Source: a virus. Taken from it: a stretch of DNA of 64,000 nt. How positions within the stretch are numbered: the first letter of the stretch is position 1; each line of letters begins with the position of its first letter. Location: positions 42,559 to 106,558 of the IMG/VR virus record IMGVR_UViG_3300037961_002813; one strand, 5' to 3'. Of the stretch, positions 20,803 through 58,322 are shown in pieces. The position numbers and the translations under genes are program-made. Under the pieces are notes generated by a model. That model was not told the DNA's origin and made no database searches. It saw only the letters and a program-made list of their open reading frames with translations.

Positions 20803-21141
20803 ATGGTGGAGTATGACTTCTGTGATTGTTGTAGTCCTACCGAACTTGCTTTTGCAGTGATGAAAGCAAAGAAAAAGTCCAAGCCGTTTCACGGTTATAA
20901 CCCAAATAGGCATCACCGAAAAGGTGGGCTAAACGCTAAAGGTAGGGCGGCGGCTAAGAGGAAAACCGGCGCAAACTTGAAGCCGCCTGTAACCACCAAA
21001 CCGTCAAAACTCAAGCCCGGCTCTAAGAAAGCAAAGCGTCGTAAGTCTTTTTGTGCGAGAATGGGTGGTATGAAAGGGCCAACTTCTAAGAAGGGCAAAT
21101 TGACACCAAAAGGTGCGGCATTGAAAAGGTGGAATTGTTAA
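20803..21141 (+). CDS. Very basic small protein (KGGLNAKGR...RRKSFCARM module), candidate internal virion protein
   Basis: Lys/Arg-rich module preceded by SPTELAFAVMK tag. Confidence 0.75.
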   Translation: MVEYDFCDCCSPTELAFAVMKAKKKSKPFHGYNPNRHHRKGGLNAKGRAAAKRKTGANLKPPVTTKPSKLKPGSKKAKRRKSFCARMGGMKGPTSKKGKLTPKGAALKRWNC

Positions 21142-21632
21142 TGACAGCGTTTAACCAAGCGTGGGATATATTAAAAATGCGCTTTAAAGATTTTCAAGGT
21201 AAAGCAAAAGGAATGCAAGATGATATTAAACATAGATATGCAAAAGAACACTCAATGGGTTATGGCGACTCAAATACAATGCCATTTCATGAACAAGAGA
21301 CAGTTAATCAAAGCATAGTAGATAGATTAGTACATGATAAAATGCAAGAAAACATGCAACAAGGTAGAGTAGGCGAGCAAACTACAGATGCATTAGCAAG
21401 TAATAAGCCTTTATTCGTACCTAGATATGATGCTCGTACAATAGACCCTCGATTTACAGTAAGACAAGATATACAAGATGAAATGCCTTACTCATTTAGG
21501 GATTTATACACTGAAAACCCGCCAGTTAAATTTTACAACCCGGAAGATTATTCACACCTTTCAAAACCAACTCTTACTGAAAAAGATATGGAGATGTTGA
21601 GAAGGTTCGACACTAATAATTTTGATATATAA
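21141..21632 (+). CDS. Hypothetical protein with N-terminal AFNQAWDILK tag
   Basis: Start revised to ATG 21141 (TAATG overlap). Confidence 0.7.
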   Translation: MTAFNQAWDILKMRFKDFQGKAKGMQDDIKHRYAKEHSMGYGDSNTMPFHEQETVNQSIVDRLVHDKMQENMQQGRVGEQTTDALASNKPLFVPRYDARTIDPRFTVRQDIQDEMPYSFRDLYTENPPVKFYNPEDYSHLSKPTLTEKDMEMLRRFDTNNFDI

Positions 21633-21644
21633 GGTGGAATTAAC

Positions 21645-22454
21645 TTGAATGCATTTAAACAGGCTTGGAATTTATTAAAACAAAAAAATAGTGTAGATTA
21701 TAGTAGGTTACCAAAGGCTGACTTGGCTATGATGAATGCGCTTGCTAATCTTGGGTATCCTATTTTTCCCAAAACTCCTACAACACCAACTAAGAATCGT
21801 TTATTTCCTACTGAACAAGAAGAAATAAGAACTCATCATGACCCATACTTTTCCATAGATTATGAAAATGATGAAGATGTTAGAAATGATTTAGAAGAAA
21901 TTATGGAACAACAGGATAAACCACTTGGTTATGCTTTAGGTTTGGGTAATGAAGATTTTGATGAGGTTCGGGATGAGGTAGGATATGATTCAAAAGGGAA
22001 TATGAAATATTTTGCCCCTACAATACACCATACAGATAGAATAAGAAATTTAGGAAGAACACTGCAACAAATGACCGGGCCAATTGGTAATAACGAACCA
22101 CAAATAACAAGAAATGATAAGCAAGTATTTCAAGATTTTAAACAAGTAGACCCGCTACAGTTTGATAAATTTAACCAAGCATATCTTAACAGAAATCAAT
22201 TTAAACCATTTTATGAAGCCGAAAAAGTTTTGTTTAATAACCCTCAATCTTTTGGTCGAAATGCACCGAATGAAGGACAAATACAGCAACTTAGAGAAGA
22301 TTTTAATTTAGACGATGCAGAATATAGAGATATTGGTTCTGCTTTACAATTTATGAATACTCCTACTGAACAAAAAAGACTGTTTGAATTTGGTGATACA
22401 CCGCATGCAGAAAGATACCGGGAAATGTTAAGTTCTTTAAATCAAGACCAATAA
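21645..22454 (+). CDS. Hypothetical protein with N-terminal AFKQAWNLLK tag
   Basis: TTG start after AGGTGG SD. Confidence 0.7.
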   Translation: MNAFKQAWNLLKQKNSVDYSRLPKADLAMMNALANLGYPIFPKTPTTPTKNRLFPTEQEEIRTHHDPYFSIDYENDEDVRNDLEEIMEQQDKPLGYALGLGNEDFDEVRDEVGYDSKGNMKYFAPTIHHTDRIRNLGRTLQQMTGPIGNNEPQITRNDKQVFQDFKQVDPLQFDKFNQAYLNRNQFKPFYEAEKVLFNNPQSFGRNAPNEGQIQQLREDFNLDDAEYRDIGSALQFMNTPTEQKRLFEFGDTPHAERYREMLSSLNQDQ

Positions 22455-22485
22455 GTTTAATTTGTAAACTACTTTAGGCTCGGAC

Positions 22486-22662
22486 ATGAGTGTAGTTGAA
22501 TTACTTGGATATTTTTTAGTAGCCGTTTTAGTAGGTTATGTTTGGGCTTGGTATATGATTGTTAATGAAAATACTACAGATTTTAAAGTATTTAATAGCG
22601 AAGAAGAAATAGAAGAATTCCATAAGTCTTGCTTCCACGGTATGAGGAAGGGGATTGAATGA
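22486..22662 (+). CDS. Small single-pass membrane protein (58 aa)
   Basis: Manual translation MSVVELLGYFLVAVLVGYVWAWYMIVNE...; ATGA overlap with lyase gene. Confidence 0.6.
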   Translation: MSVVELLGYFLVAVLVGYVWAWYMIVNENTTDFKVFNSEEEIEEFHKSCFHGMRKGIE

Positions 22663-23495
22663 AGGTAACCGTCTATGAGGTTGGCCCTCGTGACGGATTG
22701 CAAAATTTAAAACAATTTATACCGACTGAAATTAAAATAGGCTTGATTGATGAATTATACAAAGCCGGTTTAACTCATATTGAAGAAACATCATTTGCAC
22801 ATCCAAAGTATGTACCACAGATGGCTGATGCTGAAAATGTGTTTAACAAAGGTTCTGTGCTTGTAATGAACAAGCGTGGTCTTGATAGGGCGTTAAGTGT
22901 AGGTGCTGAAAAAATAAATATTGTATATTCACCATGTGAAGAGTTTAATATCAAAAATTTTGGTAAAACAAGAAGTGAATTAATCACAATGTACTACACA
23001 ATGCTTAACGGAATACCTAAAGAAAATATAAGAGTCTACATTTCTATGGCGTTTGGGAGTCCGTATACCGGCGTAATATCGCCTAAAATGATGCGTTTAT
23101 GTATAAAAGATGCAAAATTGTTGGGTAAAACGGTAGTTTTCTCGGATACCGTAGGTGCGGCTACAAAAGAGGAAGTAGCATTGTGGGCGGATATGGCGAA
23201 AGAGAATAATTTGAAAGCCGCTATTCATATTCATCATAACGGAGATGAACAAAAAGCAATTAGAACAGTAAAATATGCTTTATTGGAGGGTATTAGAGAA
23301 ATAGACTCTAGTATAGGCGGTTTGGGTGGCTGTCCTTTCGTACAGGAGAGTGGTGCTAACTTGTCTACTGAAACATTAGTACGACATTTGAATGTATGGG
23401 GTTTTGATTGCGGTATAACTGAAAGAAAATTACAACCGGCTTTAAAAATTGTAAGAGAAATAAAAGAACTTCAAGAGTTAATGTTAGTAAAATAG
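22659..23495 (+). CDS. hmgL: Hydroxymethylglutaryl-CoA lyase (DRE-TIM metallolyase)
   Basis: YEVGPRDGLQN, TSFAHPKYVPQMADA, SDTVG, HIHH metal site, DSSIGGLGGCPF, GANLSTE. Confidence 0.88.
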   Translation: MKVTVYEVGPRDGLQNLKQFIPTEIKIGLIDELYKAGLTHIEETSFAHPKYVPQMADAENVFNKGSVLVMNKRGLDRALSVGAEKINIVYSPCEEFNIKNFGKTRSELITMYYTMLNGIPKENIRVYISMAFGSPYTGVISPKMMRLCIKDAKLLGKTVVFSDTVGAATKEEVALWADMAKENNLKAAIHIHHNGDEQKAIRTVKYALLEGIREIDSSIGGLGGCPFVQESGANLSTETLVRHLNVWGFDCGITERKLQPALKIVREIKELQELMLVK

Positions 23496-24863
23496 ATGTT
23501 GATTTCTTGGCTCAACTACTGTTGGGTTTTCTTCTTTATAGTTTTCAGCCATTAATTGTATAGTTCTGTGCATAAAAGGGTCAATATCTTCAATTAATGT
23601 ACCGTTATTCGTCGGTGTCATTTTATGTGTGCGGTCAAGCATCATTATGTCGTCAATAAATTCTTGTGGTAATTCTTCATTGTGGTGGAGTTCTACTGAA
23701 CCTTTTACTAATAACTCCCATGCTAAATCCATAGGTTCACTTTTGTATTTCTCATCTTTTCTTGCTGTAATAGCCGCTTGTTTTTTTCGTCTTTGATTTT
23801 TTTGTCTATTTTTACCACCCATAGGTTTACCGTCTATTTTTTGCCTTCTTGCTACATGTTCTTTAAATTCATTTTTACTTAAACCGTGAGCATCAATAAG
23901 CATAGTATTATTTTTTCCAAATTGGTCGCCTGTAAACGGTTGTCCACCTCTAATAAAAGGAGTACCACGATACATAACAGTAGTAAGTATGGGTTTTTTT
24001 GTTCTAGGGTGTTCTTTAACAACTGCAATAATTGAGTCACCTCTACTACGAGAATCAGCCGAACTTAATCCATGTTGTCTTAATACATCTTTAGGTATTT
24101 CTTTCGCTTCTCTAATGTTATCTAATAAATGAGTTCGTATAGCAAATTCTTTGGTAGGAACATTTCTTTTATAGTTTCCATCTTTATCTAAATATGGGCT
24201 TAATGCAGAATGTATCCTATCTATTATTTGCTGTCTTTCCTCATCTTTTTCAAATCTATAATTCCCAAACAATCTAAAATTAGCATGGCCTATAGTGCCT
24301 TCATAAAATTCTTTAGGTAATCTACCTTTAAAACTAGGTTCTGCATTAGAGTCAAATTGAGGTCGTTGAGGTTCGGGTTCGGGTTCAATTTTTGGAGGTA
24401 AATTTTGAGCCGGAATATCTAAAGGTGCTTTATCAGCATCTATATTTTCAGTAAAAAAACCACCTTCTCGATTTCCTGCTAATACATTTGTAAAATTTTG
24501 TCTTGAAACCCCGGAATAATCATCCGGTAGATTTAGATTAGGTTTATTATACATATCTTGTATATGTTGTTGTACAGAAGGATGGACATATTCTCCCTTT
24601 GATACACTTGCACCGGCTTTGGCTTTGTCAGCCATATCTTGAGCCGATGACATTTGTGCTTGATTCTTTTGCTGTTGCATTTCTGCTCTTCGTTGTTGCA
24701 TCTCCATGCCTGTTTGAGCCATACTTTGAGGCTTAAGTTTTTCTTTTATGGCTTCTACTGCAACTTGACCTGTCTTATCCTTTGCTTTACTTGCAACACT
24801 TGCTATTGCGCCACCAATTACCCGTAAAGGTACGGCTTTACGCACACCAACAGGTCGGCTCAT
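23484..24863 (-). CDS. Multi-module hypothetical protein carrying SEPMDLAWELLVK tag
   Basis: 459-aa ORF opposite to neighbours; tag at ~23700-23744. Confidence 0.75.
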   Translation of the reverse strand: MSRPVGVRKAVPLRVIGGAIASVASKAKDKTGQVAVEAIKEKLKPQSMAQTGMEMQQRRAEMQQQKNQAQMSSAQDMADKAKAGASVSKGEYVHPSVQQHIQDMYNKPNLNLPDDYSGVSRQNFTNVLAGNREGGFFTENIDADKAPLDIPAQNLPPKIEPEPEPQRPQFDSNAEPSFKGRLPKEFYEGTIGHANFRLFGNYRFEKDEERQQIIDRIHSALSPYLDKDGNYKRNVPTKEFAIRTHLLDNIREAKEIPKDVLRQHGLSSADSRSRGDSIIAVVKEHPRTKKPILTTVMYRGTPFIRGGQPFTGDQFGKNNTMLIDAHGLSKNEFKEHVARRQKIDGKPMGGKNRQKNQRRKKQAAITARKDEKYKSEPMDLAWELLVKGSVELHHNEELPQEFIDDIMMLDRTHKMTPTNNGTLIEDIDPFMHRTIQLMAENYKEENPTVVEPRNQHLFY

Positions 24864-24925
24864 GAATAGCGTATAGGGCGAGCATTCTAAATGCTATCGC
24901 TACCTCGCCCATAACAGGTGCGAGC

Positions 24926-27310
24926 GTGAGCAAGATTTTTGTTAAACAGCAAACCACCTTACGAGACTACGGAATGGAAAGAGTAGATGAGTTTCCAACC
25001 ATTCCTTATGACCCATCTCAACTAACACCCGGTATTGAAGCAAGTTTGCAAAACCAAAGTGATTCATATAGAACTGCACCTATGGGTGAAGGTCATATCG
25101 TATCTAATATTCGACCTACTAACTTACAAGAATATATGGATATGTTACATGACGATTATTATACAAATGTAACTGCTTTTAGTCATCCAACTGAACTTGA
25201 AAATATAGAAAATGACCTTGAAAATACTAGAAATACGGTTATGCGTCAAATATCTAATCAAGTAGGTGGGTATGGTCCAAATAGAAAATTTCAATTATTT
25301 CCAAAAGGCATACCATCTAAAACACCAACAGGGTATGAAAATGCTAGTCATACAATGTTAGATATGCTTAGACAAATGGATATTAAAGAAAAAGGATTTA
25401 GTGATATTACACAAGAAATGATAATGAATGCAAAAATTTTTGGTACAGGTGACCCTTCAAATGCGCCCAAACCTCTTGATTTAGATGAAGATGGAAACCT
25501 TGCGTATGTTAAAGAATTAGAAAAAATAAAACGCACAAGAGCAATTAATGATGCTCTAAAAAATACATTACCGGGTAACTATGATAAAAATTTTGCTAAC
25601 TTAATGGAATCTTTTAAAGGAAAGCGTAGAGAAAATTTAATGTCATCAAGAAACTTTTTTAATAATTTAGTTAGAAGATATGGCCCTCAAGGTGCAACCG
25701 AGATATTAAGAAATCACCCTGCTTTAAAATTAAACCGTCAAAGAAGTTTAGCCGAAGTATTACCTGCATATCAAACTGAAAATCCATTTAACCCGGATGG
25801 CTCAATAAAACCCGGTGCTGTACCTCCTGTAACAGCAGTTAAGCAAATGTCTGCTAGTGATATTAAGAGATTAATGCTTGGCGCAGGGCTTATGCCTATA
25901 GGCTCACAAACTGATTCGGATAATGAAGGATACGAGCGTACTCAAGTAATACCTCGCTTAATGAGGCAATTTGATAAAAATAGAAGTCAGCAAAGTAAAG
26001 ACCTTTCCGCACTTGAGAAACCAATGATTATTGCTGAACATGATTCACAAAATCGTGGCGGAACACAAGCCGGAAGTTTTGTCTCACCTACAACAATACC
26101 GGATATTCGTAGAGCAATTGTAGCATCAAAAAGAGAACCACAGAATCTAAGAATGTTAGGTGTAAGAGGTTTAAATCCTGTTGATGATTTTGTACAACAA
26201 CGAGCATCTACAGGACAACAAGAAGCAACAAGTGAAGGATATATACACTCAAGAATAGACCCTAGTAGACTTGTACCAATTGAAATGCCAAAAGGTGATA
26301 TTCCTGCTACAGTTAGAGGTGATGTATCTATTGATGTAAGCGACCCAACACCTTCACAAGAGCAAAGAGTAGCCGCTATACTTGGTACTGTAGATGAAGG
26401 TTTTAAACCCGGTATTACAAGAAATACTATAACACCTAAATTAACTAGAAGAGGTGGAGGAAAACGATTTAACTTACAATCATTATTTAGATTTAATAAA
26501 GATGGATATACTGATGGTCGAAATGCGATTAGAGGACACATAGCAAGAAATGAAGATAGAATGAAAGATTTAGATGAATCACTTGAAATATATTATAAAA
26601 GATTAAAAGACTTGAATAATATGACAAGTCAAATTACAAATCCACACACTTTGGTTAATCATGAAGATTCAATAGAACACGCAGAATTCCGTATTGATGA
26701 TTTAGAAGGAGAAAAAGAAAAAGTTAATACTCAAATACAACATCTTAATCATAGATTAAAATATTATAATCAAGATTTCCAAGAAGCAGTTAAGCAATAT
26801 GCAGACGGATTAAAAAGTATAGATGAAAAATTACCATTCCTTACCGATATGCCACTAGAAGGTATTGATTTAACTGATACTGCAAAATACTTTACATCAA
26901 GAGATGGTTATGATGGTGGAACTGAATTAGATGACAGGAAAAAATTAAACCTTAATTTAGACAAACATGGTTTCCCGTTAAAAGAAGATGGCACTGCTAT
27001 GACATTAGATGAAAAAATTAACTTAGTAACAGACCCTAATTTAGAAGAATTAGCAGAAAATATATTTAAAAATAGAAATAGAGTTTTAGACCAAATAATG
27101 CGCTACAATACAAAACTACCTTTCGGTGATGACACACCAACTAAAAAGAAAATTGGAGTTCAAGAATTAGAAGATTATATTAAAAGACTAGAATCTGCAA
27201 AATATGATGAACTAGATGCTAGAGGTTATAACCCGGATAATAAAGCATTTGAAGAATACTTAAACAATTTAAGAAGAGATTACTACGAAGCAAGGGTGGG
27301 AGTGGTTTGA
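24926..27310 (+). CDS. Large hypothetical protein, candidate internal head protein
   Basis: 794 aa; N-terminus MSKIFVKQ; coiled coil; SEGYIHSRIDP motif. Confidence 0.75.
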   Translation: MSKIFVKQQTTLRDYGMERVDEFPTIPYDPSQLTPGIEASLQNQSDSYRTAPMGEGHIVSNIRPTNLQEYMDMLHDDYYTNVTAFSHPTELENIENDLENTRNTVMRQISNQVGGYGPNRKFQLFPKGIPSKTPTGYENASHTMLDMLRQMDIKEKGFSDITQEMIMNAKIFGTGDPSNAPKPLDLDEDGNLAYVKELEKIKRTRAINDALKNTLPGNYDKNFANLMESFKGKRRENLMSSRNFFNNLVRRYGPQGATEILRNHPALKLNRQRSLAEVLPAYQTENPFNPDGSIKPGAVPPVTAVKQMSASDIKRLMLGAGLMPIGSQTDSDNEGYERTQVIPRLMRQFDKNRSQQSKDLSALEKPMIIAEHDSQNRGGTQAGSFVSPTTIPDIRRAIVASKREPQNLRMLGVRGLNPVDDFVQQRASTGQQEATSEGYIHSRIDPSRLVPIEMPKGDIPATVRGDVSIDVSDPTPSQEQRVAAILGTVDEGFKPGITRNTITPKLTRRGGGKRFNLQSLFRFNKDGYTDGRNAIRGHIARNEDRMKDLDESLEIYYKRLKDLNNMTSQITNPHTLVNHEDSIEHAEFRIDDLEGEKEKVNTQIQHLNHRLKYYNQDFQEAVKQYADGLKSIDEKLPFLTDMPLEGIDLTDTAKYFTSRDGYDGGTELDDRKKLNLNLDKHGFPLKEDGTAMTLDEKINLVTDPNLEELAENIFKNRNRVLDQIMRYNTKLPFGDDTPTKKKIGVQELEDYIKRLESAKYDELDARGYNPDNKAFEEYLNNLRRDYYEARVGVV

Positions 27311-30222
27311 AACGGGGCAAAATAATTGTTAAACAAAGTCTAAGTGATGCATATAGGCAATACTTAGAGGATGTAACTATCCCAATGAATACTTATTTTG
27401 AAGCACCCGAAGAGTTTGTAACTACTAAACCATCTATTTATCATTCATTAAGATTGCAACCTGCTACTGATGCAAGAACAGGTCGAATAAGAAATTCACC
27501 CGCAATAGCAAGAGCATTAGCAAGTATAGACAATTTACAATTTCAAGATGATATAAAAAATTTCTCGTTACCATTAAACACTAATCAAGGACAACCGCTA
27601 TACGGTAGACATGTTTATCCCGGTGAGTTACATTCTTTAAGTCCTAATTTAACATCACATACATCAGTACCCGATTTACCAAGAACTTACATAAAAAGAT
27701 GGGGTGGTGGAGAAAAGTACAGACCGCTTAATTTGTATGGTTTTACAGGTGATGCCGCTACTCCGCAAAGATTTACTAATCAAACATTACAACCGGAAGG
27801 AATAATTTACGGTAATTTAGATACAAATGATGTAGTACAACTAAACACTAGACCTGCTTCTGCAATTAGATTAAGTCAAGTAGCAAGAGCATTGTCACCG
27901 TTTCATCCCGAAAGAGATGTAAAAGATTTAACTGAACGCTCGGAAGATTTAGCAAGAGATATTATGGATGCGGGTATTCCACCAATATTAGCAGAATCTA
28001 ATGTAGATACTAAAGGTGTAACTCAACATTTACCATTTAGATTAGATAATAAAATAGATGTAAAGGAAGCACATGACCCATTTGTTCAATATGATATGGG
28101 TAATTTAAATCGCCCGACCCCGGAAGGACTTGAACAGTTTACACTTGATTCTATTAGAGCAGGTGAACCAATGGACATCGCTATGCAGTTGTTGAAAGAA
28201 GAGATACCATATAGCAGTAGAGATTATCCACCACAAGAAATTTCTATATCTACAGGTAATCCGCTTGTAACACCTAAAGTTGCAGGTGAAACACCCGAAG
28301 TTTGTAACATGCCGGGATGTGATTCGGGTCTACCTCCTGTGATGTATAGAAGAATGGCTAATCCGATTAGAAGTATAGATAATCATGAATTTATGTGTGA
28401 GCAGTGCGCTTACAAACATGACTTACAATCATTACTTTTCGATAAAATGATTAAAGGTGAAATAACTCTAATGGAATACGCTATACGAAAAGCCACTTTA
28501 CCTACTTTACGAGAAGCAGGTTTAAGTTTTGAAGATTTAGATGCTTTAAGATTTATTCCTAATTATCGTAAAACAAGTTTTTATCAACCACAACTATTAA
28601 ACAAACCTGCTAACATAGATTATGAAATAAGAACTGCATCAAAAAAACCGGAATACAAAAGAATACCCGGATTACAAACAGAACTTGGACCACCACAAAA
28701 TAATATACATTCTTATTTTGTAAACCCTGCAACACGCTTAGGTGCTTTAGGGGGAGATGTGACATTCATGGCTAGACCTACATTATTAGGTATTAGAAAT
28801 AATAATAATAATTATGGAGTTGATTTTTGGAGGACTAAAAGACAAGGGGCAGGTAGTGAAGGTGGAGAAGGTTTAATTTACGGTGAACTACCAAAACAAA
28901 ATTTTGTAGAAATTCCAATAAATTATACTGCGGCTGATGCGATGAGGGCTAAATTAAATTTAGACCACTTTATGAATACTTTTCACATACCGGAAGAAGA
29001 AGCATTTGAAATGTTAGCCACTAGATTTCCCGAAGTGCATAATATAGCATCACAATTACCAAATGTAAATACTCAAGATACTTCATGGCAACAACCTGCA
29101 CAATACAGGGGTACTAATCCATTACTCTTAGATGAGATAGATACAAAAGTAGCAAGCGAGCCAATGGATATTGCTATGCAGTTGTTGAAACAAGAACCTT
29201 TACAATTGAGAAATAGTGCTGAACTTGCCGAATTAGCAAGACAAGGTGACACGGAAGCATACAATGAAATGATGGAAAGAACAGGTGATTATTACTTGGC
29301 TAATGAAATAACCGGAGAACCCGATATGGAGGCTAACTTAGAGGCTTACGGGGCTGAAACAGGTAAAAATCCATTTAAAACTCCCCCTATTGGGCGTACA
29401 AATCAAATTCAAATCCATCAACCTCCTGTGACTCCTATTCATGCTGATAAAAAATTACATAATTGGCAATACAAAAACGCAAGTGAGCCGATGGAGATTG
29501 CTATGCAGTTGCTAAAGCGTGAATTACATCCCGGTAGAGATATAGAGGGTTATCTAAAAGATGATGGACATTATGCCGGTGAAGAAGAACTTTACAATTT
29601 AAATGACCCCGAAGTACAAAATTTTGTAAATAGATTACATTTAGATAAACAACCACCCGTACATCTTATTCCCGAAACTTTAGGTATGGATTTAGAATAT
29701 GTTGAGCCGGAGTTAAGAGTTGAAAATAGAGATACTAAGTTATATCATCCTATTATGATGGATGAACATGAAAACTTAGATAAATTCCCCGATAGAAAAA
29801 TAGTTGAAAGAGAAGATGGTACAAAAGAAGAACTAGTTTCTACAAGCGACCCAACAAGTGATGTTGTTGGAGTTGGAAGAACAGGTCGTACTCTTGTATC
29901 TTCAAAACCTACATTTGAAGGTATACCATTTAGTGAAGAAACAGGCTTTACCCGTAGCGAACCGATGGAGATTGCTATGCAACTACTCAAAGAGCGTGTA
30001 AGCCCCGAAGCCAAGCGACACAAGTTAGAGTATGATAAGAAGTATGAATCTTCACCGGAGAGAGTAAAATACCGTGAAGAATTAAACCGTGAGCGTAGGC
30101 GTAGACACATTATGGGTAGGGGTGGACCGGATATGAGCCACACCAAAGACCATACCATTGTACCGGAAAGCCCTCATACTAATCGGGCAAGGCATTTTAA
30201 AGACAAAGGAACTCTTTTGTAA
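27307..30222 (+). CDS. Polyprotein-like protein with four EPM(D/E)IAMQLLK linkers
   Basis: Linkers at 28159, 29152, 29479, 29953 separate unrelated modules; last module basic and HNH-remnant-like (DMSH...TNRARH). Confidence 0.8.
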   Translation: MKRGKIIVKQSLSDAYRQYLEDVTIPMNTYFEAPEEFVTTKPSIYHSLRLQPATDARTGRIRNSPAIARALASIDNLQFQDDIKNFSLPLNTNQGQPLYGRHVYPGELHSLSPNLTSHTSVPDLPRTYIKRWGGGEKYRPLNLYGFTGDAATPQRFTNQTLQPEGIIYGNLDTNDVVQLNTRPASAIRLSQVARALSPFHPERDVKDLTERSEDLARDIMDAGIPPILAESNVDTKGVTQHLPFRLDNKIDVKEAHDPFVQYDMGNLNRPTPEGLEQFTLDSIRAGEPMDIAMQLLKEEIPYSSRDYPPQEISISTGNPLVTPKVAGETPEVCNMPGCDSGLPPVMYRRMANPIRSIDNHEFMCEQCAYKHDLQSLLFDKMIKGEITLMEYAIRKATLPTLREAGLSFEDLDALRFIPNYRKTSFYQPQLLNKPANIDYEIRTASKKPEYKRIPGLQTELGPPQNNIHSYFVNPATRLGALGGDVTFMARPTLLGIRNNNNNYGVDFWRTKRQGAGSEGGEGLIYGELPKQNFVEIPINYTAADAMRAKLNLDHFMNTFHIPEEEAFEMLATRFPEVHNIASQLPNVNTQDTSWQQPAQYRGTNPLLLDEIDTKVASEPMDIAMQLLKQEPLQLRNSAELAELARQGDTEAYNEMMERTGDYYLANEITGEPDMEANLEAYGAETGKNPFKTPPIGRTNQIQIHQPPVTPIHADKKLHNWQYKNASEPMEIAMQLLKRELHPGRDIEGYLKDDGHYAGEEELYNLNDPEVQNFVNRLHLDKQPPVHLIPETLGMDLEYVEPELRVENRDTKLYHPIMMDEHENLDKFPDRKIVEREDGTKEELVSTSDPTSDVVGVGRTGRTLVSSKPTFEGIPFSEETGFTRSEPMEIAMQLLKERVSPEAKRHKLEYDKKYESSPERVKYREELNRERRRRHIMGRGGPDMSHTKDHTIVPESPHTNRARHFKDKGTLL

Positions 30223-30947: not shown

Positions 30948-30956
30948 GGTGGTTAG

Positions 30957-31916: not shown

Positions 31917-31921
31917 GTGAT

Positions 31922-32095: not shown

Positions 32096-32096
32096 A

Positions 32097-33658: not shown

Positions 33659-33659
33659 A

Positions 33660-41577: not shown

Positions 41578-41759
41578 GTTGTGAATGTGGACATTGTATT
41601 GGAATGGATAGTGCGTTTGACTTTTTAGAAAAGAAACTATGCCCCGAAGGTAAAGCGGCGGCAAAGCGTAAATTCAAAGTTTATCCGTCAGCCTATGCTA
41701 ATGGATGGGCTGTTCAATATTGTCGTGGTAAGTTTAGAAAGAAGGGGAAGAAAAAATGA
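41574..41759 (+). CDS. Small basic protein (KRKFKVYPSAYAN module)
   Basis: CECGHC followed by MDSAFDFLEK tag and basic module. Confidence 0.7.
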   Translation: MSCECGHCIGMDSAFDFLEKKLCPEGKAAAKRKFKVYPSAYANGWAVQYCRGKFRKKGKKK

Positions 41760-41921: not shown

Positions 41922-42935
41922 ATGACTAAAGTATTAATCCGCAAGAACTTGAACCGATGGTTCAAAGAAAAGTGGGTTGATGTTAGTCGTAAAGATAAGG
42001 ATGGTAAGCACCCGCCATGCGGTAGGTCAAAAGCCAAGACTTCAAGCAAAGGTTATCCAAAGTGTAGACCGAGTGTAAAAGTTTCAAGTAAAACTCCAAA
42101 AACTTCCGGCTCAATGTCCGAAGGGCAAAAACAAGCCGCTACTAAAAGAAAGCGTAGTAAGAAACAAGGAGTCGGTGGTAAGCCTACAATTGTAAAAGAA
42201 GATTTCATCAATGACCCTATGAGTAGTTTTAACATGATGATGGCTTTACAAGATGAAGCGTATAAATTGGCTGAATTAAATATGCCTTACTCTCGTGAAA
42301 TATATCCAAATCGTGATGAATATGAAGATGCTTTAGAATTGGAAGGAGAATATCAACTTATGCAGATGATGACTAATCCTAAGTATGCACCTCTAAGAGA
42401 AAGATATATGCAAAGTATCCCAAAAATGACTGAAACAGATGGGTTTTCTCAAGATTTTATTGATACTTACAAAGGCAATCCAATAGAAATCGCATTTAGA
42501 TTATTAAAAGCACCTCGTATACCTCGTAAAAAAGGACAACCTGCGGGTTCAAAGAAGCATTCCGATTTGTATACTGATGAAAACCCAAAAGGAACAATAC
42601 ATAATTTAGGATTTAAAAATCCTCAAAAAGCAAGACAGTCAGTTAGTAAAATCAAAAACAGTAGTAGAACTCATGCTCACAAAACTCAAGCGGCTATCGC
42701 TATGGAACAAAGAGCAAGAGAAATGGGTAAAAAACAAGAAGCAGGTATATACCGTAGATTCATAGAGCAACAGAAAAAGAAAACAAAGGAGATGAATAAA
42801 ATGGATGATAAGAAGAAAAAGAAAGGCGTTGTAATGGTCATCGCTATTGGTGGTAAGCCACCTAAAGGTATGGAAAAACCAAAAGATGACAAGAAAAAAG
42901 CATTTGATGACGCTTGGAATACATTAAATAAATAG
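41922..42935 (+). CDS. Modular basic protein (WFKEKWVD..PCGR..YPKCRP and HSDLYTDENPKGT modules)
   Basis: Basic modules separated by PTIVK and GNPIEIAFRLLK; C-terminal AFDDAWNTLNK. Confidence 0.75.
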   Translation: MTKVLIRKNLNRWFKEKWVDVSRKDKDGKHPPCGRSKAKTSSKGYPKCRPSVKVSSKTPKTSGSMSEGQKQAATKRKRSKKQGVGGKPTIVKEDFINDPMSSFNMMMALQDEAYKLAELNMPYSREIYPNRDEYEDALELEGEYQLMQMMTNPKYAPLRERYMQSIPKMTETDGFSQDFIDTYKGNPIEIAFRLLKAPRIPRKKGQPAGSKKHSDLYTDENPKGTIHNLGFKNPQKARQSVSKIKNSSRTHAHKTQAAIAMEQRAREMGKKQEAGIYRRFIEQQKKKTKEMNKMDDKKKKKGVVMVIAIGGKPPKGMEKPKDDKKKAFDDAWNTLNK

Positions 42936-53142: not shown

Positions 53143-53204
53143 TTTCTTTTAGACATAAAGTATCAGTTCAATATAAATAGGATGACAGTAAGTTGTGTGA
53201 ATTG

Positions 53205-54620
53205 ATGCTAACTATACAGCGACCATCTGCGGGATTGAAAGTCCTAAAGAGTGGTAGTGATTTAGTTGTAGCCGGTTATGCATCTGTAGAACTTGTTGAT
53301 AAGCAAGGAGATTTGATTACTCGTGGTGCATTAAAAGATGCATTTGACGGTTTTATGAAGAGTGACAGATACAGAAATGTACAGTTGGCTCACTCTAATA
53401 TACAAGTTGGAGAAGTTATAGATAACTATGTAGACTCCAACGGAAGAATGTGGAAGTCCGAAGTAGACGACACAGGAATGTTTGTAGTTTGTAAACTACG
53501 AAACGATATAGAAAAGGCTCGTGAAGTAGCCGCAGAAATACGCAAAGGTAATTTGCAAGGATTCTCCATTGGTGGACAGGCTTTCAAGCGTGTTAGAAAG
53601 GCTGATGGTGAACACGGAGAATACCAAGAGATAAGTAAAATGGAACTCCATGAAATTACAATTTGTGAAAAAGGGATTAACCCGGAAGCACAATTTAGAA
53701 TTTTAAAGGAAGATGTGAATAATATGACAGATATAGACAGTGACCTAAACGCAGTAATGAACAGGCTAGAAGCAAGACTTGACGCTATGGAGAAAGGTGA
53801 AATTCCACCTCAACTCCGAGAGCATATCAAGGGTAAGAAAGATGATTCCGACGACAAGAAAGAAGAAAAGAAGGATGATAAGATGAAGGCCGAAGATGAA
53901 AAGAAAGATGAAAAGAAAGAAAAGAAAGATGATGACAAAATGAATTACATGAAAGGTGATGAATACAGTGATGTCATTAGTGCCGAGTACCTAAATTGGA
54001 TGGAAGATACTCTAAAATCCGCAGGTGTAGATACTCATTCAGCAAGAGCGCACTTTGATGCTCTTGAGAAAGCACAACTTGGTGGATTCGACAACCCGGA
54101 TACAGTAGACGGTGCAGATTACTTCGCCGGACAAGTTAGAGGCCGAGGACAAACCGCAGGTAGTCCATCAACCGGTGCTATCAATGCAGTAAGTCAAAGC
54201 GGTGGAAAGCAACCGGCAGGGGCTATGGGTGCGGCTGACCTTTCAAAATCCTACATTCACCCATCGAGTGTTTCAGCATCCGATATTGAGGCGGCTTATG
54301 AAGTCTACAAAGCGGCGGCTATGGAACAACAATTCCGTGGTGACCTAGAAGGACACTTTGCTTCAAGATTTGCTAAAGAGCAAGAAATTGCTAAGTCCGA
54401 AGCAGAAAAGGCTCAATTTGATGCTCGTGAACCAATTAGTGAAGTCATGAAAGCAATTTCAAACCTTTCCGAAAGAATTGACAACCTAACTACAGAAGGA
54501 ACAACAATTGCAAAGGCTGACCTATCAACAAATGTTACAATCCCATCTACTCAAGACCTAAGTAACATGTCTTGGGATGAGGTACACACACTAGCAAATA
54601 GTGTCTACAGGGGTGCTTGA
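53205..54620 (+). CDS. Prohead protease fused to scaffold
   Basis: VAGYASVELVDKQGD, QLAHSNIQVG (His), GFSIGG (Ser), LHEITICEKGINPEA; charged coiled-coil C-terminal half. Confidence 0.92.
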   Translation: MLTIQRPSAGLKVLKSGSDLVVAGYASVELVDKQGDLITRGALKDAFDGFMKSDRYRNVQLAHSNIQVGEVIDNYVDSNGRMWKSEVDDTGMFVVCKLRNDIEKAREVAAEIRKGNLQGFSIGGQAFKRVRKADGEHGEYQEISKMELHEITICEKGINPEAQFRILKEDVNNMTDIDSDLNAVMNRLEARLDAMEKGEIPPQLREHIKGKKDDSDDKKEEKKDDKMKAEDEKKDEKKEKKDDDKMNYMKGDEYSDVISAEYLNWMEDTLKSAGVDTHSARAHFDALEKAQLGGFDNPDTVDGADYFAGQVRGRGQTAGSPSTGAINAVSQSGGKQPAGAMGAADLSKSYIHPSSVSASDIEAAYEVYKAAAMEQQFRGDLEGHFASRFAKEQEIAKSEAEKAQFDAREPISEVMKAISNLSERIDNLTTEGTTIAKADLSTNVTIPSTQDLSNMSWDEVHTLANSVYRGA

Positions 54621-54653
54621 GGATAATAAATTAAAAATTAGGAGATGAAAAAT

Positions 54654-55823
54654 ATGGCAAGAGATTACATAAGAAACATAACAGATATGGAAAGATATTT
54701 TTACGGCGCAGGTAACGCTATGGGCTATTCCTACTCCGGTAGTGAATTGTTGAAGGCTGACGCACCAATGCTAAGTACTACAGCAGGAACATACCAAGCA
54801 ATCTACGGTAGAAAAGTTTGGTCACAGTTGAACCAAGAGTTTAACGCATTCTCAATTCTACCTAAGAGACCATGGGAAAGAAGTGGTTGGAGAGTTATTA
54901 CTGACAGACCATCCTTTGCTAAGGGTGGCGGTGTAGCAGAAAACGCTACTCTACCGGACACAACTAAACCACAGTTCCAACACATAGCCGCAAAACCAAA
55001 GACAGTTGTTCACACATTTGACATGAGTGAAACCGCTATGTTCTTGGCTGACAAAGATGACGGTCTAGGTGACATTCGTTCAGTACTAAAGGAAGAAATG
55101 GGTAAGCACCACGCAGAACACATCAACAAGATGCTTACACAAGACTGTGACACAGTAGCAGGTAACGACTTTGAATCACTAGACAGAATCACCGGAAATG
55201 ACGGTGGTGCAACCGGTGGACTAACCTCTTTGGAAACAGGTGCGGCGGCGGCAGACCACTGTGGCGCAGGTGACCTTGACATCTACAGTATTGACCGAAG
55301 TGCAAACTCATGGTCAAATGCAGAAGTAAACTGTGGTAGCGACCAAGATGCGGCTAACAGAAGGACTCTTTCACTAGACCATTTAGACACACTATTCCAA
55401 CAGATTTGGGTTCGTGGTGGTAATCCAAAGGTTATCCTAACAGGATATGATACTCTAATGAGACTTCAACAACTACTACAAAGCCAACAAAGGTTCATGG
55501 AAGAGAAGAGAGTTACACCAACCTACAACGGTGTTAAGGGTGTACCGGGTATTGAAGCCGGTTTCATCGTAGCAACCTACAACGGTGTACCAATCATTCC
55601 ATCTAAAGATGTAGTAAAAGACGGTATTTCCCGTATGTATTTCTTAGATACTGATTACACATACTTCTCAACTGCTATACCAACTCAATACTTTGAATCC
55701 GGTATCGAAACCGGTGACCCATTCGCTATTAACCGTCTAGGACAAGAGGGTATGTACCGTTCAATGGGAGAAATTTGGACAACTTTCTTTGGAGGACATG
55801 GTTCAATTCGTGACCTACAGTGA
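54654..55823 (+). CDS. Major capsid protein (HK97-like fold)
   Basis: Follows protease; ILPKRPW, GGVAENATLP, YNGVPIIPS; high-expression codon usage. Confidence 0.9.
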   Translation: MARDYIRNITDMERYFYGAGNAMGYSYSGSELLKADAPMLSTTAGTYQAIYGRKVWSQLNQEFNAFSILPKRPWERSGWRVITDRPSFAKGGGVAENATLPDTTKPQFQHIAAKPKTVVHTFDMSETAMFLADKDDGLGDIRSVLKEEMGKHHAEHINKMLTQDCDTVAGNDFESLDRITGNDGGATGGLTSLETGAAAADHCGAGDLDIYSIDRSANSWSNAEVNCGSDQDAANRRTLSLDHLDTLFQQIWVRGGNPKVILTGYDTLMRLQQLLQSQQRFMEEKRVTPTYNGVKGVPGIEAGFIVATYNGVPIIPSKDVVKDGISRMYFLDTDYTYFSTAIPTQYFESGIETGDPFAINRLGQEGMYRSMGEIWTTFFGGHGSIRDLQ

Positions 55824-55861
55824 GGTTAATGGAGAAAAAAATATTAAGGAGATGATTAAAT

Positions 55862-56326: not shown

Positions 56327-56336
56327 GGTGGGCTAA

Positions 56337-57253: not shown

Positions 57254-57277
57254 TTCACCTAGCAGAAGGTGATTTAA

Positions 57278-57451
57278 TTGGCTAAAACATGCACAATACT
57301 CGGTCCTTACGCACAGGCAGACTTTAACGACTCTACTAAGAGAACCGCTATACAAACTGCAATTGTAACGGCTTTTAGTACTAATACTCCTGTGTCAGCA
57401 GACCCGCATGTAATACTTGGTAACATCTACATATTCGTGACCACATCTTGA
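57278..57451 (+). CDS. Small hypothetical protein (57 aa)
   Basis: TTG start after AGGTGA; MAKTCTILGPY...IYIFVTTS*. Confidence 0.55.
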   Translation: MAKTCTILGPYAQADFNDSTKRTAIQTAIVTAFSTNTPVSADPHVILGNIYIFVTTS

Positions 57452-57460
57452 GGTGGTTAA

Positions 57461-57754
57461 ATGGGGTTTGATTTACAGAAATTAGACCTTAGCGACTTAG
57501 TGAGAGCGAGTAAGCAAGGTGTCAAGTTAGATACACATTCAGCCGTTGTAGCAGATAATGAACATCCACTAAAGGGTGTTACATCTCAACAACGAAATCG
57601 CAATAAAAATATAGGTGATATACTTAACATTGGTTCGGGAACAAGATGTACACACTGTGGCTTTCTACATTTTATGTGGAGAGCAACATGTGCCACATGT
57701 GACAAACCAATGGAATATAATCTAGGACATAGAGATGAAGAAAACAGGATATGA
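57461..57754 (+). CDS. Zn-ribbon protein
   Basis: CTHCG...CATC. Confidence 0.7.
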   Translation: MGFDLQKLDLSDLVRASKQGVKLDTHSAVVADNEHPLKGVTSQQRNRNKNIGDILNIGSGTRCTHCGFLHFMWRATCATCDKPMEYNLGHRDEENRI

Positions 57755-57758
57755 TATT

Positions 57759-58322
57759 ATGAGTAAAATTTTAATTAAAATGCCAATGAAACCACATAGA
57801 CAAAAAGTGCTTACACCGGATGGACAAGAAGTTCGTCTACAGCAGTTTGCTAATCGTATGGCCGCAGATGCGCTTAGAGGCGCAGGTGGAGATGCAAGTG
57901 GCGACCAATTCACTTCTGCTCGTGACAAACTCATGCGTGACATAGTAGCGAATCCCGAAGCACATAATATCAAGTTCATGGGCGAAAGAGTACCTTTTGA
58001 GGGGCAAACTCTTGGTGAATCACTTTCCATGCCCGATGTAGCAGGTGAGCAAGCCGCTATTGATAGTCAATTTGCAGGTAAAGAACCTATGGATGACCCC
58101 GATTTTAAAGAAAATATGACAGAAGATGAATCTTTTGAATTAGCAGAAAAGTTTATGCCCGGTGTTGTAGCAAATCACGGTAGTTCATTCAATACTCCAC
58201 CAAAAGAAGATGATGATGAAAAAAAGTTCAACCCCGACAAAGAGGCTGAACATCTGCGTCGTATTATGACTTCTCGTAATGTAATTATGCGTGATGCTTG
58301 GAGTGTATTGAAAAATCAGTGA
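57759..58322 (+). CDS. Hypothetical protein with MSKILIK N-terminus and MRDAWSVLK C-terminal tag
   Basis: Start revised to MSKILIK. Confidence 0.7.
   Translation: MSKILIKMPMKPHRQKVLTPDGQEVRLQQFANRMAADALRGAGGDASGDQFTSARDKLMRDIVANPEAHNIKFMGERVPFEGQTLGESLSMPDVAGEQAAIDSQFAGKEPMDDPDFKENMTEDESFELAEKFMPGVVANHGSSFNTPPKEDDDEKKFNPDKEAEHLRRIMTSRNVIMRDAWSVLKNQ

What the first reader, a model, noticed from the sequence alone, without database searches (positions are those of the whole stretch)
20803..58322. Shared peptide tag (S/G)EP(M)(D/E)xA(W/M/F)xxLLK on many unrelated proteins: candidate capsid cargo-addressing and polyprotein-processing system
Seen directly: AGEPMDIAMQLLK (28159), ASEPMDIAMQLLK (29152), ASEPMEIAMQLLK (29479), RSEPMEIAMQLLK (29953), KSEPMDLAWELLVK (23700, minus strand), TGEPMKDAWSTLLK (35289), TSEPMDNAWSELLK (35799), KGNPIEIAFRLLK (42471), SPTELAFAVMK (20833), AFNQAWDILK (21147), AFKQAWNLLK (21651), MDSAFDFLEK (41603), AFDDAWNTLNK (C-terminal, ~42900) and MRDAWSVLK (C-terminal, ~58287). 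Codons differ between copies, so the constraint acts on the peptide. The tag is an amphipathic helix ending in Lys, placed at a protein end or exactly between unrelated modules: very basic DNA-binding-like peptides, acidic domains, a Zn finger and ART-like segments. The capsid protein (SELLK/AD) and protease-scaffold (VLK/SG, ILK/ED, IAK/SE, IAK/AD) have the same hydrophobic-hydrophobic-Lys ending. The precedent is T4, whose internal proteins carry a capsid-targeting sequence removed by the prohead protease. Inference: a portable tag lets any module dock on the procapsid scaffold, be cut free after Lys, and be stored in or ejected from the head. That would make a plug-in payload system in an archaeal virus.
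Basis: partly seen in the sequence, partly recalled or inferred. Interest (0 to 1): 0.9.

Follow-up and report, generated by a model that had tools for sequence, protein, structure and literature searches.

The report
Lysine-ended cargo tag in a magrovirus
A short amphipathic peptide ending in Leu-Leu-Lys really does recur at the ends of, and between, many unrelated protein modules encoded beside the head genes of an abundant ocean archaeal virus. It most likely addresses them to the capsid and marks where the capsid protease cuts them apart, but neither step has been shown.

Summary
The window is a magrovirus-like tailed virus with an HK97-type capsid protein and an S78 prohead protease fused to a scaffold.

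- **The tag is real.** (S/G)EPM(D/E)xA(W/M/F)x(1-2)LLK occurs 8 times in strict form, always in coding frames. A DNA pattern that matches four of these copies gives 0 matches in shuffles.
- **It is widespread but virus-specific.** Related ~100-kb viral contigs hold 213 further unique copies. Only 2 real copies turned up in 596 Gb of prokaryote genomes.
- **It marks module boundaries.** Tags sit at N-termini, at C-termini (sometimes as the last residue) and between domain-sized modules (median 140 aa). I sorted 338 modules into 115 families.
- **Modules are portable.** The same module appears as a stand-alone ORF or inside a polyprotein. It always starts right after the Lys, behind either the helical tag or a short N-terminal MKxVLVKK-type leader.
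- **Cutting is plausible.** Proline never follows the Lys (0 of 205, about 12 expected).

Cleavage and packaging remain inferred. First-stage readers noted similar linkers in two other genomes of this scan. I class it as a new variant of the T4 capsid-targeting principle.

The parts
28159..28197 (+). helical tag 1 of the 971-aa polyprotein (AGEPMDIAMQLLK)
   Evidence: (27.9 bits). Predicted helix 288-297.
29152..29190 (+). tag 2 of the 971-aa polyprotein (ASEPMDIAMQLLK)
   Evidence: (26.4 bits). Predicted helix 619-627.
29479..29517 (+). tag 3 of the 971-aa polyprotein (ASEPMEIAMQLLK)
   Evidence: (25.7 bits). Predicted helix 728-736.
29953..29991 (+). tag 4 of the 971-aa polyprotein (RSEPMEIAMQLLK). 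It precedes the most widely conserved basic C-terminal module, ERVSPEAKRHKLEYDK...
   Evidence: (27.5 bits). The following module has pLDDT 72-81.
27307..30222 (+). 971-aa polyprotein: N-terminal leader MKRGKIIVK plus five modules (288, 331, 109, 158 and 76 aa, each counted with its trailing tag)
   Evidence: The ortholog's leader is MVDDKYWQLLK in front of the same module start.
23703..23744 (-). tag of the 459-aa protein (KSEPMDLAWELLVK), followed by a 72-aa acidic module
   Evidence: 25.9 bits. Orthologous tags are in L004 and L007.
35289..35330 (+). tag A of the 610-aa protein (TGEPMKDAWSTLLK)
   Evidence: 27.2 bits. Conserved in relatives.
35799..35840 (+). tag B of the 610-aa protein (TSEPMDNAWSELLK), followed by a 293-aa module of net charge +32
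   Evidence: (31.5 bits).
42471..42509 (+). tag in the 337-aa protein (KGNPIEIAFRLLK), between a DUF5872 module and a basic module
   Evidence: 21.8 bits. DUF5872 stands alone in relatives.
42900..42932 (+). C-terminal short tag of the 337-aa protein (AFDDAWNTLNK, then stop), preceded by a VVMVIAIGGK strand-like element
   Evidence: Weak score (-0.6 bits). The same composite sits at the N-terminus of a relative's protein.
20833..20865 (+). diverged tag (SPTELAFAVMK) in front of the DUF6321 basic module (net +30)
   Evidence: It matches an internal junction, CCSPAEIAWAVTK|AKKKSKPF, in G004.
21147..21176 (+). N-terminal short tag of the 167-aa protein (AFNQAWDILK)
   Evidence: N-terminal enrichment.
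21651..21680 (+). N-terminal short tag of the 269-aa protein (AFKQAWNLLK)
41604..41633 (+). N-terminal short tag MDSAFDFLEK in front of the basic module KLCPEGKAAAKRKFKVYPSAYANGW
   Evidence: aligns to ...MDLAFRLLK plus the same module inside the G002 829-aa polyprotein.
58287..58313 (+). C-terminal tag of the 195-aa protein (MRDAWSVLK, two residues before the stop)
   Evidence: 4.6 bits; the ortholog G002_34980 scores 10.4 bits.
40053..40076 (+). possible C-terminal tag of the 390-aa protein (FAAYTLLK, two residues before the stop)
   Evidence: Pattern match only.
24926..24946 (+). N-terminal strand-like leader MSKIFVK of the 794-aa protein
27307..27333 (+). N-terminal leader MKRGKIIVK of the 971-aa protein
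38913..38936 (+). N-terminal leader MAKILVKK of the 390-aa protein
   Evidence: The G002 ortholog has MGKVLVK.
41922..41945 (+). N-terminal leader MTKVLIRK in front of DUF5872
   Evidence: The T7-like phage homolog starts MS|LRRWF... without a leader.
57735..57779 (+). N-terminal leader ...MSKILIK of the 195-aa protein
   Evidence: The G002 ortholog has MTVYILK|QPNPHRQK.
53193..54620 (+). S78 prohead protease fused to a scaffold. Candidate exposed cut sites are FRILK172|ED and TIAK|AD. LKVLK19 is a core beta strand.
54741..54755 (+). candidate maturation site SELLK37|AD of the capsid protein (gene 54645-55823)
   Evidence: Invariant in 56 relatives. Aligns to GGMSK|AD of the HVTV-1 capsid protein, which carries about 66 more residues upstream.

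Best explanation
The window belongs to a magrovirus-like archaeal tailed virus that keeps a large, fast-shuffling set of accessory protein modules. They include very basic DNA-binding-like peptides and acidic domains. Relatives also carry GNAT, HD and SAM-lyase-like enzyme modules.

Each module is preceded by a portable leader that ends in hydrophobic-hydrophobic-Lys. Some modules are followed by one instead. The main form is an amphipathic helix, (S/G)EPMDxA(W/M/F)xLLK. At protein N-termini, a shortened helix (M..FxxAWxLLK) or a short strand-like MKxVLVKK can replace it.

Proposed mechanism (inferred):
1. The leader docks the module or polyprotein inside the assembling procapsid, on the scaffold, the capsid protein's N-terminal segment or the protease.
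2. The S78 prohead protease then cuts after the Lys and frees the modules.
3. The modules stay with the packaged DNA and probably enter the host with it.

Recombination within the conserved tag sequence moves modules between genes and genomes.
For: Shown:
1. The tag is real, in frame and far above chance.
2. IMG/VR relatives hold 213 unique strong copies, against 2 real copies in 596 Gb of prokaryote genomes.
3. All copies lie in the block co-oriented with the terminase, portal, protease and capsid genes. None lies in the replication arm.
4. Segments between tags are domain-sized, median 140 aa and range 56-378. The 338 modules fall into 115 families, 64 of them singletons.
5. The same module occurs stand-alone or inside a polyprotein and starts right after the Lys whatever the leader. 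Examples...RLLK|KLPPHWS against MKRVLVKK|ALPRHWS; MKRGKIIVK|QSLSDAYRQYLE against MVDDKYWQLLK|RSLADQHRQYLE; LLK|ASLPTMRE against MKPVQVKK|AYLPT.
6. Tags also end proteins: 14 of 114 C-terminal remainders are 11 aa or shorter, one of them 0. So the tag does more than mark a cut.
7. Pro is absent right after the Lys (0 of 205; 0 of 158 unique; 9-12 expected; p about 8e-5). Pro is enriched at the P2' and P4'-P6' positions.
8. N-terminal hydrophobic-hydrophobic-Lys leaders occur in 39 of 163 late-block proteins against 22 of 207 others (Fisher p = 7e-4).
9. The protease is S78 (Pfam 1.5e-10). His67 and Ser125 align to His65 and Ser114 of HK97 gp4. Its best fold matches are herpesvirus assemblins and T4 gp21.
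10. FRILK|ED and TIAK|AD fall in low-confidence linkers of the model. SELLK|AD in the capsid protein is invariant and aligns with K|AD in HVTV-1.
11. Homologs of three basic modules lie between the scaffold and capsid genes of T7-like marine phages, without leaders. In T4-like cyanophages they lie beside the terminase genes, fused into 427-849-aa proteins.
12. Relatives' modules include GNAT and SAM-lyase-like domains located within polyproteins, and HD domains. These are typical of injected polyvalent proteins (PMC5512222).

Established knowledge: HK97 gp4 removes the capsid protein's delta domain by cutting after Lys103 (the sequence FNK|SLGS is seen). T4 internal proteins are a diverse set that share only a capsid targeting sequence (PMC3012670).
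Against: - There is no direct evidence for packaging, for cleavage, or for which partner binds the tag. Cleavage after Lys cannot be seen in tryptic proteomics.
- The tag is far longer and more conserved than a typical protease site.
- The strand-like leaders share only the final hydrophobic-hydrophobic-Lys with it. So docking and cutting may be separate functions, or docking may use another feature.
- The capsid protein's N-terminus is uniformly conserved, so conservation cannot mark a propeptide boundary.
- One proposed protease site is structural.
- Tag DNA has a consensus with rare codons, so part of the conservation may reflect gene conversion.
- The AlphaFold model of the 971-aa protein is poor (mean pLDDT 42.6), so module folds and tag exposure are not established.
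- The window's own modules have no recognisable enzymatic family.
Confidence: 0.55

Rival explanations
1. The tag is a docking or oligomerisation helix that is not cleaved. The multi-module proteins stay whole, as classical polyvalent proteins do. The repeated helix binds a common partner, such as the capsid interior, the portal or a host target, or it bundles the modules together.
For: The conserved part spans 13-16 residues, and often a further PFxExTGFT element upstream. That is much more than a protease site needs. Tags at the extreme C-terminus have nothing to release. Some polyvalent proteins are delivered uncut (PMC5512222).
Against: Short strand-like leaders replace the helix in front of the same modules. 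Pro is strictly excluded right after the Lys yet enriched just beyond it. Modules work equally well as separate ORFs. The final residue is always Lys, which matches the known P1 residue of an S78 protease.
Confidence: 0.2
2. The tag is only a polyprotein processing signal. The viral protease, or another protease, cuts the precursors in the cytoplasm. The products act inside the infected cell and are never packaged.
For: The module boundary sits exactly at the Lys, and Pro is excluded at P1'. Nothing shows encapsidation.
Against: Stand-alone modules keep an N-terminal tag, and others carry a tag as their very last residues, which processing alone does not explain. S78 proteases are active inside procapsids (established knowledge). 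The genes are interleaved with terminase, portal and connector genes. Module homologs sit in head or packaging gene clusters of unrelated phages.
Confidence: 0.1
3. The conserved element is mainly a DNA-level recombination cassette that lets modules be swapped. The peptide it encodes is a tolerated linker with no function of its own.
For: There is a preferred codon consensus with rare codons: CGG 61% in tags against 2% genome-wide, ATC 69% against 21%, CTC 45% against 10%. Upstream contexts and downstream modules are combined freely.
Against: Every degenerate position shows synonymous variation while the residues stay fixed or change conservatively (W/M/F, I/L, R/Q). Codon identity at identical residues is 0.52-0.59, no higher than in orthologous core genes at 0.35-0.61. 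The element is never found out of frame or in non-coding DNA. The N-terminal short tags and strand-like leaders have different DNA but the same terminal hydrophobic-hydrophobic-Lys.
Confidence: 0.05
4. The tag addresses proteins to a destination other than the capsid. Candidates are a virus-encoded chaperonin, the membrane/GTPase module encoded at 30393-33911, or a host complex.
For: An amphipathic helix is a generic binding element. Many magroviruses encode chaperonins (PMC5434244).
Against: There is no specific link to any such partner. Tagged genes are also interleaved with terminase, portal and connector genes. The Lys end and the Pro exclusion point to a protease.
Confidence: 0.1

Closest known systems
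T4 capsid targeting sequence (CTS) and internal proteins IPI-III and Alt, processed by prohead protease gp21
   Same: A short conserved amphipathic leader is the only shared feature of a diverse, fast-evolving set of small proteins. In T4 the leader sits at the N-terminus, ends at the protease's P1 residue and is removed in the prohead. The window's cluster of small ORFs at 20803-22454, each with an N-terminal tag, mirrors the T-even internal-protein locus (PMC3012670).
   Different: The sequences are unrelated. P1 is Lys instead of Glu. The protease is of the HK97/S78 type, not gp21. Here the tag also sits internally as a delimiter of up to five or more modules in one polypeptide, and at C-termini. 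An alternative strand-like N-terminal leader exists. The host is archaeal. Function is not demonstrated.
Polyvalent proteins of phages and conjugative elements (Iyer et al. 2017, PMC5512222)
   Same: Many unrelated domains are strung in one polypeptide. The genes lie near head genes. The proteins are predicted to be packaged and delivered with the DNA. GNAT, HD and SAM-lyase-like modules occur in relatives.
   Different: Polyvalent proteins are described without a conserved inter-domain delimiter. Where they are processed, it is attributed to embedded peptidase domains. Here a uniform tag separates the modules and no embedded peptidase was found.
Propeptide-directed head proteins of giant phages (phiKZ, SPN3US) cut by a gp21-like protease
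   Same: Many head and ejection proteins are processed at one short motif by the prohead protease (PMC5694885, PMC10052503, listed).
   Different: In those phages the motif is a three-residue site ending in Glu and the propeptides are not a conserved portable tag. No polyprotein strings of shuffled modules are described.
HK97 gp4 C-terminal capsid-targeting tail, and encapsulin cargo-loading peptides
   Same: Short terminal peptides load proteins into an HK97-fold shell and can work on foreign cargo (my own knowledge, not checked here).
   Different: The motifs differ. Those peptides are not cleavage sites and do not occur as internal delimiters. In this virus the scaffold's own C-terminal motif (NMSWDEVHTLA) differs from the tag.

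Membership tests
S78 (HK97-type) prohead serine protease | Sequence match to the family profile above its curated threshold | tested here: met
   PF04586: E = 1.5e-10, 41.9 bits against a cutoff of 21. PF14550: 32.1 bits against 24.
S78 (HK97-type) prohead serine protease | Catalytic His and Ser conserved | tested here: met
   BLASTP to HK97 gp4 aligns LAHSN (His67) with FNHKT and GFSIG (Ser125) with GMSVG. Both are invariant in 46 relatives. The identity of the HK97 catalytic residues is from my own knowledge.
S78 (HK97-type) prohead serine protease | Assemblin-like fold | tested here: inconclusive
   The top Foldseek matches are herpesvirus proteases (E = 2.6e-3, probability 0.99), and T4 gp21 is at rank 15. 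But TM-scores are low (0.17-0.41) and the model's mean pLDDT is 59.8.
S78 (HK97-type) prohead serine protease | Cuts after Lys in capsid and scaffold substrates | not testable with these tools
   Only candidate sites are available: SELLK|AD, FRILK|ED, TIAK|AD.
T4-type capsid-targeting-sequence system (by function, not homology) | One short conserved leader shared by otherwise unrelated proteins | tested here: met
T4-type capsid-targeting-sequence system (by function, not homology) | The leader is sufficient to load proteins into the prohead | not testable with these tools
   Needs a tag-reporter assembly assay.
T4-type capsid-targeting-sequence system (by function, not homology) | The leader is removed by the prohead protease | not testable with these tools
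   Indirect only: invariant Lys, no Pro at P1', module starts at Lys+1.
T4-type capsid-targeting-sequence system (by function, not homology) | Homology to the T4 CTS peptide or to gp21 | tested here: not met
   The tag ends in Lys, not Glu, and the protease is S78. This is an analogue, not a member.
Polyvalent proteins | Two or more unrelated domains in one polypeptide, recombined among relatives | tested here: met
Polyvalent proteins | Enzymatic effector domains of conflict type | tested here: inconclusive
   Relatives carry GNAT, HD_4, DUF3293/SAM-lyase and DnaJ zinc-finger domains. The window's own modules match nothing.
Polyvalent proteins | Delivered into the host with the DNA | not testable with these tools
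   -
Magroviruses (viruses assigned to Marine Group II archaea) | Capsid protein about 33% identical to haloarchaeal siphovirus capsid proteins and to nothing else; genomes of about 100 kb; ligase inside the structural module; SNF2 helicase in group A | tested here: met
   34% identity to HVTV-1 and HCTV-1, with archaeal viruses only. Relatives are 85-105 kb. A weak ligase domain lies in the 1859-aa protein between portal and protease. SNF2 helicase is at 11611-14175. The description comes from PMC5434244.
Magroviruses (viruses assigned to Marine Group II archaea) | Archaeal-type replisome genes; host assignment | not tested
   The window holds only part of the replication arm. No tag-bearing contig was found in any Poseidoniales genome.

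The most novel reading that the evidence does not exclude
The tag may be one dialect of a protease-matched addressing code for capsid cargo that is shared across marine viruses of bacteria and archaea.

The same kit of small basic modules (DUF5872, the KLCxxGKAAAKRKFKVYPSAYA module and DUF6321) appears in three forms:
- leaderless in T7-like phages, which lack a head protease;
- fused in T4-like cyanophages, in one case by linkers FS(N/S)WRD...PEPMV..xE that end in Glu, the P1 residue of gp21;
- behind EPMDxAWxLLK tags that end in Lys in magroviruses, which have an S78 protease.

If this holds, cargo modules cross between bacterial and archaeal viruses and are re-addressed by swapping the leader. 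The leader alone would then predict the packaged and injected proteome of uncultured viruses.
Probability: 0.2. Interest if true: 0.85.

Novelty: new variant of a known kind. Interest (0 to 1): 0.72.

Why it matters
Magroviruses are among the most abundant archaeal viruses of the surface ocean, and neither they nor their hosts are cultured. Most of their genes have no assigned function.

- A sequence tag that marks a class of portable, probably capsid-loaded proteins gives a direct handle on that dark matter. This small sample alone holds more than 100 module families. The tag says which proteins to express, where the mature products start, and which may be the first virus proteins to meet the host.
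- It would extend the T4 internal-protein principle to archaeal viruses and to HK97-type proteases.
- It would show a new architecture, with one tag used as a delimiter inside polyproteins.
- It would offer a compact loading peptide for HK97-fold shells.
- The key claims can be tested in E. coli with three genes: the capsid protein, the protease-scaffold and one tagged substrate.

Tried and rejected
- Pfam on the window's ten separate modules at E up to 1: nothing credible.
- AlphaFold2 of the 971-aa protein with 24 relatives: mean pLDDT 42.6. Only the tags (as helices) and the C-terminal module are defined.
- VIA-align wide search with that model: no match above Z 4, and only generic helices.
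- PDB sequence searches with the capsid protein and the protease: uninformative.
- HVTV-1's structural region scanned with the tag HMM: no tag, best score 3.3 bits. The tag is therefore not shared with the nearest cultured relatives.
- N-terminal processing data for the HVTV-1 capsid protein: the paper (PMC3592136) is not held, and the reviews say nothing on it.
- Literature on S78 specificity: one paper held all four search terms; it concerns SPN3US and I did not open it. A CBASS preprint I opened had nothing on S78.
- A 2A-like ribosome-skipping peptide was considered and rejected, because the tag also occurs at the extreme N- and C-termini.
- PCNA-interacting (PIP) and ESCRT-interacting (MIM) motifs were considered and rejected on spacing. 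That comparison is from memory only.
Residues 15-19 and 24-31 form the first beta-hairpin of the protease core, as in HK97 gp4.
- The FS(N/S)WRD linker of T4-like cyanophages was found in only 2 of 4 proteins checked, so it remains a lead.

Full report
**What the window is.** The right arm (about 20.8-64 kb, plus strand) carries a tailed-virus morphogenesis block:
- large terminase, 40090-41577;
- portal, 44252-46039;
- an S78 prohead protease fused to a scaffold, 53193-54620;
- an HK97-fold capsid protein of the SU10 type, 54645-55823;
- tail genes.

By tblastn the capsid protein matches only archaeal viruses, at 34% identity to HVTV-1 and HCTV-1. The left arm has an SNF2 helicase. A 1859-aa protein with a weak ligase domain lies between the portal and the protease. 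Relatives in IMG/VR are contigs of 85-105 kb. This is the published description of magroviruses: capsid protein about 33% identical to haloviruses only, genomes of about 100 kb, a ligase embedded in the structural module, and SNF2 in group A (PMC5434244).

A strict pattern finds eight copies, all in the coding frames of four ORFs. A DNA pattern covering four of them has an expectation of 0.00 in shuffles. An HMM built from the strong copies separates real from reversed proteins cleanly: 16.6-31.5 bits against a decoy maximum of 2.8.

The weaker copies gain support from relatives. MDSAFDFLEK aligns with MDLAFRLLK, followed by the same module, in a relative's polyprotein. The two N-terminal AFxQAWxxLK peptides belong to a class found 13 times in the first 30 residues of proteins in four genomes. 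Only 6 unrelated hits occur in 101,200 other positions. The C-terminal MRDAWSVLK is conserved in the ortholog.

**How far it reaches.** A degenerate DNA scan of IMG/VR returned 99 stretches. Together with the loci, they hold 213 unique strong copies. The same scan of 596 Gb of prokaryote genomes returned 9 stretches. Only two of these are real tags, both on 16-kb contigs that are probably mis-binned virus. The structural region of HVTV-1 has none. A protein search found 263 related polyproteins of 534-1700 aa. None is annotated, and some come from the Tara <0.22 µm fraction. The magrovirus papers I could read do not mention the tag.

**Anatomy.**
- Tags occur at N-termini as M-x-P-(M/F)-D-x-A-W-x-L-L-K, between modules, and at C-termini. 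Of 114 C-terminal remainders, 14 are 11 aa or shorter. They include LLK-stop, LLKGD-stop and LLKGE-stop.
- Segments between tags are domain-sized, median 140 aa and range 56-378. The 338 modules fall into 115 families, of which 64 are singletons.
- Upstream contexts (FQDIxTGEPM, DQMKYTGEPM, NEETGFTRSEPM) combine freely with downstream modules.
- Modules move between stand-alone ORFs and polyproteins. The window's tag+DUF6321 gene is the C-terminal part of 250- and 291-aa proteins elsewhere. Its DUF5872 module is a separate 97-102-aa protein elsewhere.

**A second kind of leader.** The same module begins right after the Lys whatever precedes it:

| Module family | Behind a helical tag | Behind a short N-terminal leader |
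|---|---|---|
| LPxHWS | ...RLLK\|KLPPHWS | MKRVLVKK\|ALPRHWS, MKPVLVIK\|ALPKHWS |
| SLxDxxRQYLE | MVDDKYWQLLK\|RSLADQHRQYLE | MKRGKIIVK\|QSLSDAYRQYLE (window), MRKVAIRK\|AY.. |
| LPTxxE | LLK\|ASLPTMRE | MKPVQVKK\|AYLPT |

(All.) A short strand-like N-terminal leader is therefore interchangeable with the helical tag. The window has five such leaders, on the 794-, 971-, 390-, 337- and 195-aa proteins. N-terminal hydrophobic-hydrophobic-Lys leaders are enriched in the late block: 39 of 163 proteins against 22 of 207 (p = 7e-4).

**Signs of cutting.** Pro never follows the Lys: 0 of 205 copies and 0 of 158 unique ones, with 9-12 expected (p about 8e-5). Pro is enriched at P2' and at P4'-P6'. That is what a scissile bond followed by a linker would look like.

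The protease carries the His and Ser of HK97 gp4. Its best fold matches are assemblins and T4 gp21, although the scores are weak. HK97 gp4 cuts its capsid protein after Lys103 (my own knowledge); the sequence FNK|SLGS is visible.

In the protease-scaffold model, FRILK172|ED and TIAK|AD lie in low-confidence linkers. In the capsid protein, GSELLK|(A/S)D is invariant in 56 relatives. It aligns with GGMSK|AD of HVTV-1, whose capsid protein has about 66 extra residues upstream. In the 1859-aa protein, conserved Lys sites flank the ligase-like domain.

**Signs of a capsid destination.**
- Tagged genes are interleaved with terminase, portal and connector genes.
- Several modules are extremely basic, with net charge +30, +32 and +23.
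- Homologs of three basic modules lie between the scaffold and capsid genes of T7-like marine phages. There they start without any leader (MA|KLCARGKAAAKRKF..., MS|LRRWFDEKWVDV...).
- In T4-like cyanophages the same modules lie beside the terminase genes, fused into 427-849-aa proteins.
- Relatives' polyproteins contain GNAT, HD and SAM-lyase-like modules. Such domains are characteristic of polyvalent proteins thought to be injected with the DNA (PMC5512222).
- The closest precedent is T4, whose internal proteins are a diverse set of defence inhibitors sharing only a capsid targeting sequence (PMC3012670).

**Peptide or DNA constraint?** All degenerate codon positions vary while the residues are fixed or change conservatively. 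Codon identity at identical residues (0.52-0.59) is no higher than in orthologous core genes. Yet the tags prefer codons that are rare in these genomes: CGG 61% against 2%, ATC 69% against 21%, CTC 45% against 10%. The peptide is under selection. The DNA consensus fits common descent or gene conversion among tags, and so fits their use as recombination joints.

**What remains inferred.** Packaging, the binding partner, cleavage and ejection are all unshown. The AlphaFold model of the 971-aa protein is poor (mean pLDDT 42.6). It does predict each tag as an isolated helix at 288-297, 619-627, 728-736 and 886-896. I put 0.55 on tag-directed loading plus cutting after Lys by the S78 protease. The rivals are an uncleaved docking helix (0.2), cytoplasmic processing only (0.1), another destination (0.1), and a DNA cassette with an incidental peptide (0.05).

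**Other notes from this scan.** First-stage readers saw similar linkers in two other genomes (e1-5996694, e1-5866588). Those notes are unchecked and are not independent evidence.

Noticed in passing
window 24926-24946, 27307-27333, 38913-38936, 41922-41945, 57735-57779: Five proteins of the late block start with a strand-like leader, M-x-K-(I/V)-(L/F/I)-(V/I)-(K/R). In relatives this leader is interchangeable with the helical tag in front of the same modules.
   Followed up: yes
tag DNA, e.g. window 28165-28197; 129 unique copies in L001-L111: The tags share a preferred codon consensus with rare codons (CGG, ATC, CTC, GAC, CCA) that departs strongly from genome codon usage. This is compatible with gene conversion or recombination at the tags.
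   Followed up: partly
window 46445-46783 and 54540-54620: The C-terminal motif of the scaffold (NMSWDEVHTLA) recurs at the C-terminus of a small coiled-coil protein encoded after the portal (NMDWDEIHELA). It is conserved in three relatives. It may be a second capsid-binding motif, distinct from the tag.
   Followed up: partly
window 47563-53142: The 1859-aa protein between portal and protease has a ligase-like domain. Conserved sites NPD(I/V)(L/I)xK| and L-x-(I/L)-L-(T/A)-K|S flank it in relatives and may be further protease sites.
   Followed up: partly
L141:559-3108 (Synechococcus phage ACG-2014f), L222:1221-3668 (S-SCSM2R): T4-like cyanophages fuse DUF5872, the PSAYA module and DUF6321 into one 815-849-aa protein near the terminase genes. 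ACG-2014f has three linkers FS(N/S)WRD.., two of them with PEPMV..xE, and S-SCSM2R has one. Two other phages checked have none.
   Followed up: partly
L140:2159-3137 (Prochlorococcus phage P-SCSP2), L031:2173-2662 (Pelagibacter phage HTVC131P): T7-like marine phages encode small, very basic proteins between the scaffold and capsid genes. In P-SCSP2 these include the PSAYA module, DUF5872 and DUF6321; in HTVC131P, DUF6321. Their function is unknown. The position suggests a head-internal role.
   Followed up: partly
window 22659-23495: An HMG-CoA-lyase-like gene (Pfam HMGL-like, 2e-20) sits among the tagged genes. It carries no tag, and orthologs are present in two relatives.
   Followed up: no
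window 45600-45950 and 39700-39900: The portal C-terminus has a Pro/Gly/Met-rich repeat (GMPPGMPMG, several copies). The 390-aa protein has a (PQQ)n run.
   Followed up: no
L088 about 1921-3310 (G004 9100-10477): In one relative the polyprotein region is split into three short ORFs, each ending at or near a tag. This is either frameshifts in the assembly or a real break-up at the tags.
   Followed up: no
window 1867-2868, 14172-15203: The left arm encodes a DUF932 protein (1.4e-46) and a protein with a weak tyrosine-phosphatase match.
   Followed up: no
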